From NCBI GenBank assembly GCA_036785375.1, contig JAWMAR010000069.1, positions 7,254,001 through 7,318,000 of the forward strand: 64,000 nucleotides of DNA, written 5' to 3'. This document shows, in pieces, positions 61,701-64,000 of this stretch (the stretch's first letter is position 1; each line of letters starts with the position of its first letter). The stretch is from Leucoraja ocellata (Eukaryota). A program made the position numbers.

Positions 61701-64000
61701 AATACTATGAGCTAGCTAACTCCTGAAGGTCATATCTTCCAGATGGACCTGCAGCAGGTGGCTGGAAAAGCATGAGAGAAAATAAATTAGATCTCATTTT
61801 TACCAATCTATCTATAGCAAAAACACCGATCTGTACATTCATGGCAGGTATGACCATAGTTTAATTCTCCTGGAGACTTTCACAGTTAGGAAAGCCTCTT
61901 TAATGTTGGGTGATTTTGGTAGCTGAAAGAGATGCACTAGTAAATCCAGAAATAAAAAAGGAGAAATCAAATCCTTCAACTACAGGTCAACCAGTTTACT
62001 CTGAATCATCCATTAAATGATGGCAGTGCAACCACATGACACTCACCAATAACTTACTAACTTCTGTTCAGTTTGGTTGTGGCCATTATCATTTGGGATC
62101 CAGGTCTGGTTACACCATTGGGCCAACTGTGAACAAAAATGAGAACCCTAGACTTCCTCCTGGCTCACATTCCCGTCCAAATCATCAGCGCCCAACATCC
62201 ATGGCCTTTTGCTTGATGTGCCTGAGTTTATGTTCTTTGCCACTGACCAGTTTTAATCAAAGATAGACACAAACAGCTGGAGTAACAGTCTGAAGCAGGA
62301 TCTCGAACCAAAACATCACCTATTCCTTATCTCCAGAGATGCTGGTTGACCCGCTGAGTTACACCAGTTTTTTGTGTTTATCTCCAGTTTTAATCATATC
62401 TTTTTGATACTATGTTCACTGAAATACGATCTATATCTGTGATTTGAGGGAATGGGTAGATGGATTATAATGTGAATAAATGTGAGGTTATCCTCTTTGG
62501 TGTTATAAAAACAAATGCAGATTATTATCTAATAGGTAATCCAATCAGAAATAGAAAGATGCAATCACACGTGGATGGCCTTGTGCAGAGTTCAGTGAAA
62601 CTCTTAGGCTTGGGTGTTTGGTTGTGGGTGACCTGGTTCCTGACTTCCCTGTATTGTTCATTTGTCTGGATGCTTTCATGTCTATTGAAGAATTTGAAAC
62701 ATTAAGAACAAGGCAGCCAACCAAATTGACAGCCCATCTAACAGTGCAAGCATTCTCTTTCATGAACACTGGCACCATTGTTACCCGGAAAATACATTGC
62801 TCCAAATTGCCAGTGGTTCTTCAAGAGACAAACCCACAATATCTACCACCTTGGACAGCAGATACATGGAAATATCATCATTTTTATTCTCCCTCACTTC
62901 ATAACTAACAAACCATCATCACTGGTTGAAAAGTAATTAATGTGGGTGTCAGGGGTTATGGGGAGAAGGCAGGAAAATTGGGTTGAGAGGGAAAGATAGA
63001 TCAGCCATGATTGAATGGTGGTGTAGACTTGATGGGCTGCATAGTCTAATTTGGCTCCTATAACCTATGAACATATGAACTCCCAAATAACAGTGATTAA
63101 TTGAGCAATGATAGAAGGCAACTCTGCAATACTTTCTCAATGACTATAACCATGGACAATAGCGCTGGTAATGTTCACACTGCATGCATGAATAAATATT
63201 TGGTAAATGGAGCCCGTTGAAGACGCAGTCTCACTTTGCAGTTTCCAGGAATTGCTTTCTAAGCTCCCATCTACTCAATTGTATCAGCAAGTCATTAATG
63301 ACCTGCTCTCCGCTGCTAATCCTCCCATCCACCAGCCCTTCAACATCCTTCATTGAAATCCAAATGTCTTCGATCAAATTGTCATTAATTATTCATTGAG
63401 GCATCATAGGACGATCACTGTTCCTCATATAATATTCATTCCACTGCAAAATGAGGATGTAGAAAGGTTGTGAGTTTTTGCCTTGGGCCTTATGAATATC
63501 AAACGGTTCTGTCCTCAAAACCCTTGTAAAATTTGGAACAACAGTTGCGTAGAGGATTTGTTGCATAATCTAGTCAAAGACTTGTGTTCCCAGGGATTCG
63601 ACGTGTTCCTGAGCTGAACCCATCTCAGTCAAAATCACTAAACATTATGTGTATGAAGGAACAGCAGATGCTGGTTTAAACCAAAGAAAGAAACAAGATG
63701 CCGGTGTAACTCAGCGGGACAGGCAGCATGTCAACCCGAAACTTTACCCATTCCTTCTCTCCAGAGATGTTGCCTGTCCCGCTGAGTTACTCCTGCATTT
63801 TGTGTCTATCTTTAATTAAACACCTTTCCTGTTTGAGAGGGGTGGAATAGGTTAAGGAGAAATTCCAGGAGATTGGTCATTATCAAAATGTCAAACGTTG
63901 GCCTGGGAATTTGAATTTTCTTCTTGTTTTTCACCCTTTGTCCCGGGCATTGCACAACATACGTTGGTGAGGAAATCGGTGTTCTTTTGTGCTGTTTTGC

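What the first reader, a model, noticed from the sequence alone, without database searches (positions are those of the whole stretch)
62247..62396. MITE-shaped but retrotransposed: inverted-terminus, hammerhead-bearing mini-elements with variable long TSDs
Seen: five copies of the Penelope-derived unit have direct flanking repeats of different lengths: 14 bp (29411), 15 bp (39590), about 15 bp (41600), 9 bp (51283) and 13 bp (62247). Many have inverted arms with different internal junctions (11535, 41615, 46162, 62260, 63648). Established: DNA transposons give family-fixed TSD lengths, while target-primed retrotransposition gives variable ones, and PLEs often leave inverted terminal pieces. 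Inference: each 85-250 bp palindromic unit is a separate PLE-driven insertion or a non-autonomous ribozyme-bearing family, present about once per 4-5 kb here. It would be a major source of hairpin RNA if transcribed and is easily mis-annotated as a MITE.
Basis: partly seen in the sequence, partly recalled or inferred. Interest (0 to 1): 0.65.

Follow-up and report, generated by a model that had tools for sequence, protein, structure and literature searches.

The report
Penelope-type terminal-repeat mini retrocopies
A short repeat scattered through this window looks like the end-piece of a Penelope-like retrotransposon pasted back into the genome on its own, often as a head-to-head pair that mimics a DNA-transposon MITE, a behaviour already described for these elements.

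Summary
The element at 62260-62383 is bracketed by an exact 13-bp direct repeat and has 26-nt inverted ends. It belongs to a family with 32 arms at 22 loci, about 4.8% of the window. The one at 41600 does not.

Ten loci are head-to-head pairs. About half of the arms carry an optional 36-nt 3' extension. The 5' edge is sharp, at an initiator-like TCAGT.

These traits match published Penelope-like element (PLE) terminal repeats: variable duplications, inverted pseudo-LTRs, a 30-40-bp "tail", solo pseudo-LTRs and a minimal hammerhead. A DNA-transposon MITE is excluded.

Caveats:
- Only 1 of 20 arms keeps an intact hammerhead core, and the focal copy's is dead.
- Rfam finds none.
- No PLE coding sequence lies in the window, so the PLE link rests on structural signatures only.

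Verdict: a new member of a known kind, of modest interest.

The parts
62247..62259 (.). left copy of the 13-bp target-site duplication of the focal insertion
   Evidence: Exact direct repeat with 62384-62396. Flank test p=0.0034.
62260..62286 (-). short inverted arm: the last about 27 nt of the unit in antisense, ending at the first 3' end site, with no tail
   Evidence: 85% complementary to 62358-62383.
62287..62383 (+). long arm: the unit from its 5' boundary to the first 3' end site, with no tail
   Evidence: nhmmer E=1.9e-25; alignment.
62290..62317 (+). decayed minimal-hammerhead segment of the focal copy, with both catalytic boxes mutated
   Evidence: CUGANGA and GAAA both fail for arm U+. 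Sequence read.
62384..62396 (.). right copy of the 13-bp target-site duplication
24795..24932 (+). single arm F with full tail; holds the only intact minimal hammerhead core of the window, at 24806-24833
   Evidence: Descriptor hit (0 hits in 100 shuffles).
24938..25105 (.). head-to-head pair G (short antisense arm plus long sense arm with tail), inserted 5 nt from the tail end of F
   Evidence: Its possible 9-nt flanking repeat is not significant (p=0.36).
29425..29510 (+). single arm J (86 bp, internal deletion in the hammerhead, no tail), bracketed by a 14-bp duplication at 29411-29424 and 29511-29524
   Evidence: p=0.002.
39605..39718 (.). pair L: a long antisense arm without tail plus a right arm made of tail sequence only; bracketed by a 15-bp duplication (1 mismatch) at 39590-39604 and 39719-39733
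   Evidence: p=0.003.
51292..51378 (+). single arm R (no tail, 5' end about 10 nt inside the unit), bracketed by a 9-bp duplication at 51283-51291 and 51379-51387
   Evidence: 11 nt with 1 mismatch, p=0.046.
42585..42716 (-). single arm O with full tail; candidate 12-bp duplication at 42553-42564 and 42742-42753 that does not abut the element
   Evidence: p=0.019.
11528..11745 (.). head-to-head pair A (older subfamily), tail on the right arm only
16319..16522 (.). head-to-head pair B (older subfamily), tail on the left arm only
16523..16665 (-). single arm C with full tail; its 3' end abuts the 3' end of B's right arm
20240..20440 (.). head-to-head pair D: both arms reach the 5' boundary and meet there; no tails
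22235..22340 (+). single arm E, no tail
27852..28140 (.). head-to-head pair H with a 79-nt spacer (27976-28054) of unknown origin; left arm has a tail, right arm is cut at its 3' end
28757..28815 (+). 5'-truncated single arm I with tail
30137..30209 (-). 5'-truncated single arm K with tail
40701..40768 (-). 5'-truncated, diverged single arm M
   Evidence: E=4.5e-6.
41598..41827 (.). head-to-head pair N; 36-nt tail at 41792-41827 on the right arm, and a diverged tail-like stretch on the left arm
46167..46407 (.). head-to-head locus P with a third short antisense piece (46265-46300) between the arms; tail on the right arm only
49494..49584 (-). single arm Q, no tail
52415..52540 (+). single arm S (older subfamily) with tail
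55221..55320 (-). single arm T, no tail
   Evidence: No family homology upstream.
63648..63822 (.). head-to-head pair V; full tail on the left arm (63648-63683), at most 9 tail nt on the right arm

Best explanation
The 124-bp element at 62260-62383 is one insertion of a short retroelement unit. So are 21 further loci in the window. The unit corresponds to the terminal repeat (pseudo-LTR) of a Penelope-like element.

Anatomy of the unit, about 105-115 nt:
- It starts at a sharp 5' boundary on an initiator-like TCAGT.
- It runs straight into a minimal type-I hammerhead core: CUGANGA, one unpaired base, a short G-C-closed helix II, GAAA, then a self-complementary ACGU in place of helix III.
- It ends at one of at least two fixed 3' sites that lie 36 nt apart. 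The stretch between them is the optional 'tail'.

Proposed mechanism (inferred). A PLE reverse transcriptase/GIY-YIG endonuclease supplied in trans nicks both target strands 9-15 bp apart, which produces the variable duplication. It starts cDNA synthesis internally on the RNA at either start site. It can do this from one nick (single-arm copies) or from both (head-to-head pairs whose outer ends are both 3' ends). The cDNAs run to the RNA 5' end or stop early, often at helix II or at a downstream hairpin, and are joined in the middle. This gives a different junction at each locus.

Shown here: the duplications, the arm geometry, the tail, the sharp 5' edge and the hammerhead remnant. Inferred: the enzyme, the two-strand priming and the source RNA. 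Nearly all copies are old and mutated, so neither ribozyme activity nor mobility is expected today.
For: Insertion footprints:
- Flanking direct repeats of 14, 15 (1 mismatch), 13 and 9-11 bp abut four elements, and a 12-bp candidate lies near a fifth. Three of 22 loci reach p<=0.005, where 0.11 is expected by chance. The focal repeat was re-found by the repeat finder.
- In two cases (62247 and 39590) the duplication brackets both arms, so an inverted pair can arise in a single event.

Family structure:
- nhmmer finds 31 clear hits and 1 weak hit. These were curated to 32 arms at 22 loci.
- 10 loci have adjacent arms in antisense-then-sense order, that is head-to-head. Only 2 adjacencies are tail-to-tail and none is head-to-tail.
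- About 15 arms end at the first 3' site and about 15 carry the 36-nt extension. A full tail sits on exactly one arm in 6 of 10 pairs.
- 21 of 32 arms reach the 5' region. Upstream flanks of the 9 free-ended arms share no homology: 3 of 36 pairs reach p<0.05, the lowest being 0.02. The same test inside the unit gives 30 of 36.
- One copy passes a minimal-hammerhead descriptor built from the text of PMC4209133, against 0 hits in 100 shuffles. Helix II columns pair in 80% of cells, against 10-41% when the partner is slid.

Literature (passages or sections read):
- PMC3846280: pseudo-LTRs of about 180-218 bp, an adjacent inverted pseudo-LTR, duplications of 8, 9 or 10 bp or none, a 31-bp tail on one of the inverted repeats, an Inr-like TCACT, solo pseudo-LTRs, head-to-head as the commonest arrangement, and pseudo-LTRs sufficient in trans.
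- PMC8557442: an inverted 5'-truncated copy and a 30-40-bp tail.
- PMC11167929: the purified PLE protein cleaves and extends both strands, starts reverse transcription internally at two sites, and the tail is the sequence between them.
- PMC6765202: PLEs insert into or next to earlier copies.
Against: - No PLE coding sequence is in the window. The longest stop-to-stop ORF is 169 aa. Of 61 ORFs of 90 aa or more scanned against Pfam, one matches, and it is RVT_1. Its nearest solved structures are LINE-1 ORF2p and R2, not telomerase-like.
- No copy runs upstream into coding DNA.
- Rfam reports no hammerhead at gathering score or at E<=10.
- RNAalifold predicts 0 pairs on 17 arms. Helix pairing does not exceed column shuffles (109 of 500 shuffles reach it), so there is no covariation support.
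- Helix I would be only about 2 bp.
- Partner arms are not each other's nearest relatives. Ranks run from 2 to 24 among 22-28 other arms, so a common template is not shown for pairs that lack duplications.
- 17 of 22 loci have no detectable duplication.
- No direct (tandem) pseudo-LTR arrangement is present.
- Duplications of 13-15 bp are longer than the 8-10 bp reported for Adineta vaga.
Confidence: 0.8

Rival explanations
1. The units are a self-propagating, SINE-like non-autonomous family. Each copy would carry its own internal promoter (initiator at the 5' edge, an ACGT-containing downstream element near +27 to +30) and the recognition site for a PLE enzyme. Mini-elements would then copy mini-elements, rather than being by-products of full-length PLE transcripts.
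For: The 5' boundary is sharp, on TCAGT or TCACT, with no upstream homology. No longer copies occur among the 22 loci. There are distinct older and younger subfamilies. D. virilis Penelope has a TATA-less internal promoter with an initiator and a downstream element, like LINEs (PMC2377424). Pseudo-LTRs suffice in trans (PMC3846280). A 2026 preprint argues that animal retrozymes are non-autonomous PLE derivatives.
Against: The same sharp edge is expected if reverse transcription starts in the 5' terminal repeat of an ordinary PLE transcript and runs off at its start. No transcription data were available. Shared inactivating changes sit at CpG sites and can recur independently. The promoter reading rests on motif resemblance only.
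Confidence: 0.3
2. The unit is the 3' end of, or a SINE dependent on, an ordinary LINE such as CR1, L2 or RTE, not a PLE. The hammerhead-like core would be coincidental.
For: The only reverse-transcriptase remnant detected in the window by Pfam is LINE-type. LINE-driven insertions also give duplications of variable length (recalled). No PLE gene is linked to the unit here.
Against: The 3' end has no poly(A) or short tandem repeat. There are two alternative 3' ends 36 nt apart, and head-to-head pairs in which both arms end at the element's 3' end. Neither is expected of LINEs (recalled), and both are reported for PLEs. The full minimal-hammerhead descriptor gives 0 hits in 100 shuffles. ARAGORN and Rfam find no tRNA-like head.
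Confidence: 0.08
3. The inverted pairs that lack duplications are not single events. They would be later insertions of one copy into or beside another (self-targeting), or products of recombination.
For: Partner arms are no more alike than random arms. Two tail-to-tail adjacencies (16522/16523 and 24932/24938) show that new copies do land at the ends of older ones. PLEs are reported to insert into or next to earlier copies (PMC6765202).
Against: Two pairs (62247 and 39590) are enclosed by one duplication. Adjacent arms are head-to-head in 10 cases against 2 tail-to-tail and 0 tandem. Junctions carry no intervening target DNA in 8 of 10 pairs. If all copies descend from one constant master sequence, partner arms need not look closer to each other than to other arms.
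Confidence: 0.25
4. The elements are MITEs: deletion derivatives of a DNA transposon moved by a transposase that recognises the inverted ends.
For: The focal copy has 26-nt inverted ends and a flanking duplication, and it folds into a strong hairpin.
Against: Duplication lengths are 9, 13, 14 and 15 bp within one family. Two duplication-bracketed copies have no inverted arm. Arm lengths within pairs range from 22 to about 120 nt, and junctions differ between loci. Half of the ends carry an extra 36 nt. No transposase domain was found in 61 ORFs.
Confidence: 0.02
5. The elements are non-LTR retrozymes: tandem hammerhead repeats that spread through circular RNA.
For: A hammerhead-type core, small size and a likely PLE dependence are shared with that class (PMC7229834; preprint).
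Against: No head-to-tail repeats occur among the 22 loci. The core lacks helix III and loop contacts and does not match Rfam models. Copies are not circularly permuted; they share fixed 5' and 3' ends.
Confidence: 0.05

Closest known systems
Solo and inverted pseudo-LTRs of Penelope-like elements, as described for Adineta vaga Pen families (PMC3846280) and summarised in PMC8557442 and PMC8969392
   Same: A terminal repeat of 100-200 bp found alone or as a head-to-head inverted pair. Duplications that vary in length or are absent. An optional extension of about 31-40 bp at one end. An initiator-like TCA(C/G)T. Insertion next to older copies.
   Different: No attached ORF and no direct (tandem) repeat is seen here. 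The unit is shorter (about 105-150 bp against 180-218 bp). Duplications reach 13-15 bp. The initiator-like motif sits at the very 5' edge rather than inside the repeat.
PAc, the Poseidon PLE of Anolis carolinensis, reconstituted in vitro (PMC11167929)
   Same: The hammerhead lies shortly upstream of the reverse-transcription start. There are two internal start sites, and the tail is the stretch between them. Both target strands are cleaved and extended, which would yield exactly the head-to-head pairs seen here.
   Different: In PAc the hammerhead overlaps the ORF start and the first start site lies about 85-92 nt after the cleavage site. Here the distance is about 67 nt and the stretch has no open frame. 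No enzyme was identified for this family.
Minimal hammerheads of metazoan PLEs (Cervera and de la Pena 2014, PMC4209133)
   Same: CUGANGA, an unpaired base between positions 9 and 10.1, a G10.1-C11.1 pair, GAAA, a palindromic 15.2-16.2 pair with no loop 3, and mostly single dispersed copies with some close pairs on opposite strands.
   Different: Helix II here is 4-5 bp, against the 7-8 bp quoted for Schistosoma. Helix I is about 2 bp, as in the D. virilis variant. 19 of 20 copies have lost the core.
Sm-alpha and Sj-alpha SINE-like hammerhead retroposons of schistosomes, and vertebrate non-LTR retrozymes (PMC6765202, PMC7229834, bioRxiv 10.64898/2026.07.22.740005)
   Same: Short non-coding retroposed units that carry a hammerhead and probably depend on PLE enzymes.
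   Different: Those carry canonical type-I hammerheads and occur largely as tandem arrays that yield circular RNA. These are dispersed, never tandem in this window, and often inverted.
MITEs of DNA transposons
   Same: Small size, inverted ends, a flanking duplication and a hairpin-forming transcript. Annotation pipelines could confuse the two.
   Different: The duplication length is not fixed. The inverted arm is optional and of arbitrary length. The ends are the same 3' terminus copied twice, not a transposase binding site.

Membership tests
Penelope-like element terminal repeat (pseudo-LTR) insertion | Target-site duplication of variable length, or none | tested here: met
   Lengths of 14, 15 (1 mismatch), 13 and 9-11 bp at four loci, plus a 12-bp candidate. 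17 of 22 loci have none. Published range is 8-10 bp or none.
Penelope-like element terminal repeat (pseudo-LTR) insertion | Optional 30-40-bp 3' extension ('tail'), often at only one end of an inverted structure | tested here: met
   A 36-nt extension on about 15 of 32 arms. It sits on exactly one arm in 6 of 10 pairs, on none in 2, and is ambiguous or truncated in 2.
Penelope-like element terminal repeat (pseudo-LTR) insertion | Adjacent inverted 5'-truncated copy in head-to-head arrangement | tested here: met
   10 of 22 loci, all in antisense-then-sense order. Two of them are enclosed by one duplication.
Penelope-like element terminal repeat (pseudo-LTR) insertion | Minimal hammerhead motif in the repeat | tested here: met
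   One intact copy at 24806-24833, against 0 hits in 100 shuffles. Recognisable remnants in 20 arms, of which 3 keep both boxes. Not met by the focal copy itself. No Rfam hit.
Penelope-like element terminal repeat (pseudo-LTR) insertion | Partial tandem (direct) repeats flanking an ORF | tested here: not met
   No head-to-tail pairs and no ORF between arms in this window.
Penelope-like element terminal repeat (pseudo-LTR) insertion | Same sequence found at the ends of a telomerase-like reverse transcriptase plus GIY-YIG endonuclease gene in the same genome | not testable with these tools
   None in the window. No eukaryotic genome collection was on hand. The prokaryotic contig scan found nothing.
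MITE (non-autonomous DNA transposon) | Duplication of one family-fixed length | tested here: not met
   9, 13, 14 and 15 bp.
MITE (non-autonomous DNA transposon) | Terminal inverted repeats on every mobile copy | tested here: not met
   The duplication-bracketed copies at 29425-29510 and 51292-51378 are single arms.
Hammerhead ribozyme (Rfam families) | Score at or above the curated threshold of an Rfam hammerhead model | tested here: not met
   0 hits at gathering score. No hammerhead among the 27 matches at E<=10.
Hammerhead ribozyme (Rfam families) | Self-cleavage, as a dimer for minimal variants | not testable with these tools
   Needs an in vitro assay.
Non-LTR retrozyme | Head-to-tail tandem units, each with a type-I hammerhead | tested here: not met
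   No tandem pairs among the 22 loci.
Pol III SINE | tRNA-, 7SL- or 5S-derived head | tested here: not met
   ARAGORN finds 0 genes. No such Rfam match.

The most novel reading that the evidence does not exclude
The mini-elements are 'run-off' retrocopies of the terminal redundancy of PLE RNA. Reverse transcription would start at the internal start site in the 5' copy of the repeat and stop about 105-140 nt later at the transcript's own start, which is marked by the initiator-like TCAGT. This resembles a retroviral strong-stop cDNA that becomes integrated.

Together with the head-to-head pairs, the alternative tailed and untailed ends, and the recurrent stops at helix II, they would be a genomic record of two things so far shown only in vitro for one lizard element: internal initiation and priming from both target strands. 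Because each copy keeps both the start motif and the recognition region, some may form a self-sustaining SINE-like parasite of PLEs. That family would fill about 5% of this sequence.
Probability: 0.35. Interest if true: 0.5.

Novelty: new member of a known kind. Interest (0 to 1): 0.3.

Why it matters
Practical value. Units like these are easy to annotate wrongly as MITEs or as unclassified inverted repeats. Three recognisable marks allow correct calls: variable duplication length, an optional 36-nt tail, and both outer ends being the same 3' terminus.

Scientific value. The family's sharp 5' edge, its two 3' ends and its junction hot spots could serve as a natural read-out of how PLE enzymes start and finish cDNA synthesis. 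That process has been studied biochemically for only one element. The window alone does not go beyond published PLE biology, so the value is confirmatory.

Tried and rejected
- Rfam at gathering score and at E<=10 found no hammerhead. The only matches were spurious microRNA hits on a dinucleotide repeat.
- RNAalifold on 17 arms predicted 0 pairs. Counting the named helices I and II gave 77% paired cells, but 109 of 500 column shuffles reached that, so there is no covariation.
- RNAalifold on 11 tailed arms gave a weak invariant stem between the unit and the tail (-1.24 kcal/mol). This is a lead only.
- Partner-arm similarity test: partners are not nearest neighbours, so it gives no evidence either way on a common template.
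- Search for a longer parent: BLAST of 2 kb upstream of arm T and flank-to-flank alignments found nothing. My by-eye impression that arms T and H share upstream sequence was not significant (p=0.12-0.15) and was dropped.
- Search for a PLE gene: Pfam on 61 of the 66 listed ORFs, after dropping the 5 that overlap the N run. This gave one RVT_1 hit.
- That fragment's 40 relatives in the large protein set carried almost no names, and its nearest solved structures are LINE-type.
- ARAGORN found 0 tRNAs.
- An exact 23-nt string of the unit was absent from the paper library and from the prokaryotic genome contigs.
- Pyatkov 2004 and Lunse 2017 are not held, so statements about them are recalled or second-hand.
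- A possible 9-nt duplication around 24938-25105 and a 9-nt one around 24795-24932 were not significant (both p=0.36) and are not claimed.
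Full report
**The observation**

The stretch 62247-62396 holds an exact 13-nt direct repeat at 62247-62259 and 62384-62396. It also holds 26-nt inverted ends that are 85% complementary, at 62261-62286 and 62358-62383. 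I tested flanking repeats by searching 60-nt zones around both ends and comparing with 1488 random placements in the same window. The null distribution had a 95th percentile of 8 and a 99th percentile of 10. The focal score of 13 gives p=0.0034.

**The family**

A BLAST of the focal stretch against the window, followed by three nhmmer rounds, found 31 clear hits and one weak hit, which I dropped. After reading each locus I curated 32 arms at 22 loci. One arm consists of tail sequence only and was added by eye. The arms total 3061 bp, or 4.8% of the window, about one locus per 2.9 kb. There is a younger subfamily and an older, more diverged one.

**Duplications**

- 29411: 14 nt exact, p=0.002.
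- 39590: 15 nt with 1 mismatch, p=0.003.
- 51283: 9 nt exact, or 11 with 1 mismatch, p=0.046.
- 62247: 13 nt exact.

The claimed repeat at 41600 fails (p=0.76). The shared heptamer lies inside the element's own 3' extensions. A further 12-nt candidate at 42553 and 42742 (p=0.019) does not abut the element. Seventeen loci show nothing above chance, which is expected for old copies.

**Geometry**

Ten loci have two adjacent arms, always antisense then sense. Both outer ends are therefore the element's 3' end and the 5' parts meet in the middle. Only two adjacencies are tail-to-tail (16522/16523 and 24932/24938), and they look like later insertions beside an older copy. None is head-to-tail.

Arm lengths within pairs are very unequal, from 22 to about 120 nt, and junctions differ between loci. 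At 62247 and 39590 a single duplication encloses both arms, so a pair can be made in one insertion. Two duplication-bracketed copies (29425-29510 and 51292-51378) have one arm only. The inverted end is therefore optional.

**Ends**

At the 3' side there are two recurrent termini 36 nt apart. About 15 arms stop at the first and about 15 carry the 36-nt extension. In pairs the full extension is on exactly one arm in 6 of 10 loci, on neither in 2, and ambiguous or truncated in 2.

At the 5' side, 21 of 32 arms reach a common edge on an initiator-like TCAGT or TCACT. Four more start in the 3' half of helix II. Three start within 3 nt of each other further downstream.

The 100 nt upstream of the nine free-ended arms share no homology. 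Three of 36 pairs reach p<0.05, with a lowest value of 0.02. The same test inside the unit gives 30 of 36. No copy in the window is a longer version of the unit.

**Ribozyme**

The unit opens with a core that meets the features listed in the text of PMC4209133:
- CUGANGA.
- An unpaired base before helix II.
- A G-C closing pair.
- GAAA.
- A self-complementary ACGU with no loop 3, followed by the cleavage triplet.

A descriptor written from that text finds one intact copy in the window, at 24806-24833, and none in 100 shuffles. Of 20 arms covering the segment, 5 keep the first box, 7 keep the second and 3 keep both. The focal copy keeps neither. By eye, many of the losses sit at the CpG sites of the core.

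The negative results matter here. Rfam sees no hammerhead at either threshold, RNAalifold predicts no pairs, and the named helices show conservation but no covariation. Helix I would be about 2 bp. The family is therefore hammerhead-derived, not hammerhead-active.

**What it is**

Every structural trait has a published counterpart in Penelope-like elements.
- For Adineta vaga, passages of PMC3846280 describe 180-218-bp pseudo-LTRs and an adjacent inverted pseudo-LTR. They report duplications of 8, 9 or 10 bp or none, a 31-bp tail on one of the inverted repeats, an Inr-like TCACT and solo pseudo-LTRs. Head-to-head is given as the usual arrangement, and pseudo-LTRs alone are said to suffice in trans.
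- PMC8557442 and PMC8969392 give the same picture in general terms.
- The main text of PMC11167929 shows that a purified lizard PLE protein cleaves and extends both target strands. It starts reverse transcription internally at two sites, and the tail is the sequence between those sites. In vitro insertion does not need hammerhead cleavage.
- PMC6765202 notes that PLEs insert into or beside earlier copies.

The most economical reading is that these are terminal-repeat-only retrocopies made by a PLE enzyme. Single arms would arise when one nick primes, and head-to-head pairs when both do.

**What is not shown**

No PLE gene is in the window:
- The longest stop-to-stop ORF is 169 aa.
- Of 61 of the 66 listed ORFs scanned, with the 5 overlapping the N run left out, only one matched Pfam. 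It was RVT_1.
- Its relatives are LINE-type.

The genome-wide survey and the autonomous partner therefore stayed unchecked. Supplementary files of PMC4209133, which hold fish hammerhead alignments, could not be seen and may already contain this family. Partner arms are not nearest relatives, so single-event origin is demonstrated only for the two enclosed pairs.

I did not determine the species. Minimal PLE hammerheads are reported absent from mammals, and PLEs and retrozymes from mammals and birds. I therefore do not take the contig for human.

**Rivals**

- A MITE is excluded by the variable duplications, by inserted copies with no inverted arm, and by the tail.
- A LINE-dependent SINE is unlikely. 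There is no poly(A) or simple-repeat end, there are two fixed 3' ends, the inversions are head-to-head, and no tRNA-like head is present.
- A retrozyme is unlikely because there are no tandem units.
- It remains open whether the source RNA is an ordinary PLE transcript, with reverse transcription starting in its 5' repeat and running off at the transcript start, or the mini-elements themselves transcribed from an internal promoter (compare PMC2377424).

**Verdict**

The phenomenon is established PLE biology, so this is a new member of a known kind. The focal copy would fold into a strong hairpin if transcribed (-41.9 kcal/mol, z = -5.8), but nothing here shows transcription.

Noticed in passing
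window 12576-12746: A TG/TA dinucleotide repeat that produces a cluster of sub-threshold microRNA-family matches in Rfam. They look like low-complexity artefacts.
   Followed up: no
window 34139-34600 (+), within 32000-36000: A LINE-type reverse-transcriptase fragment (Pfam RVT_1, E=9.6e-14; nearest solved structures LINE-1 ORF2p and R2). It sits in a stretch with strong positive GC skew (0.24-0.33) and is not a PLE partner.
   Followed up: partly
window 62440-62600 (+): Just right of the focal insertion, one frame reads like the C-terminal part of a LINE reverse transcriptase, broken by stops. This is a by-eye resemblance from memory. The two overlapping ORFs of 90 aa or more gave no Pfam hit.
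   Followed up: no
window 16522/16523 and 24932/24938: Two places where the 3' end of one family copy lies within 0-5 nt of the 3' end of another in opposite orientation. This suggests new copies land at the tail end of older ones.
   Followed up: partly
window 41828-41840 and 63636-63647; also 16515-16522 and 42577-42584: Beyond the 36-nt tail, two arms share about 12 further nt and two others share about 8 nt. That stretch resembles the sequence at the first 3' end site, which hints at a third start site or a repeated start motif.
   Followed up: no
arms with tails, e.g. 41734-41827: A pentamer in the unit (UGCUG) is complementary to one in the tail (CAGCA) in 9-11 of 11 tailed arms. The pairing is invariant, so there is no covariation. 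It could close a stem around the first start site.
   Followed up: partly
window 46265-46300: Locus P holds a third, short antisense piece of the hammerhead region between its two arms. With the start of the right arm it forms a small fold-back.
   Followed up: no
window 27976-28054: A 79-nt spacer of unknown origin lies between the two arms of locus H. It has no significant similarity to other copies' flanks.
   Followed up: partly
window 5682-5909: A run of 228 N. It was left untouched, and ORFs overlapping it were excluded from searches.
   Followed up: no
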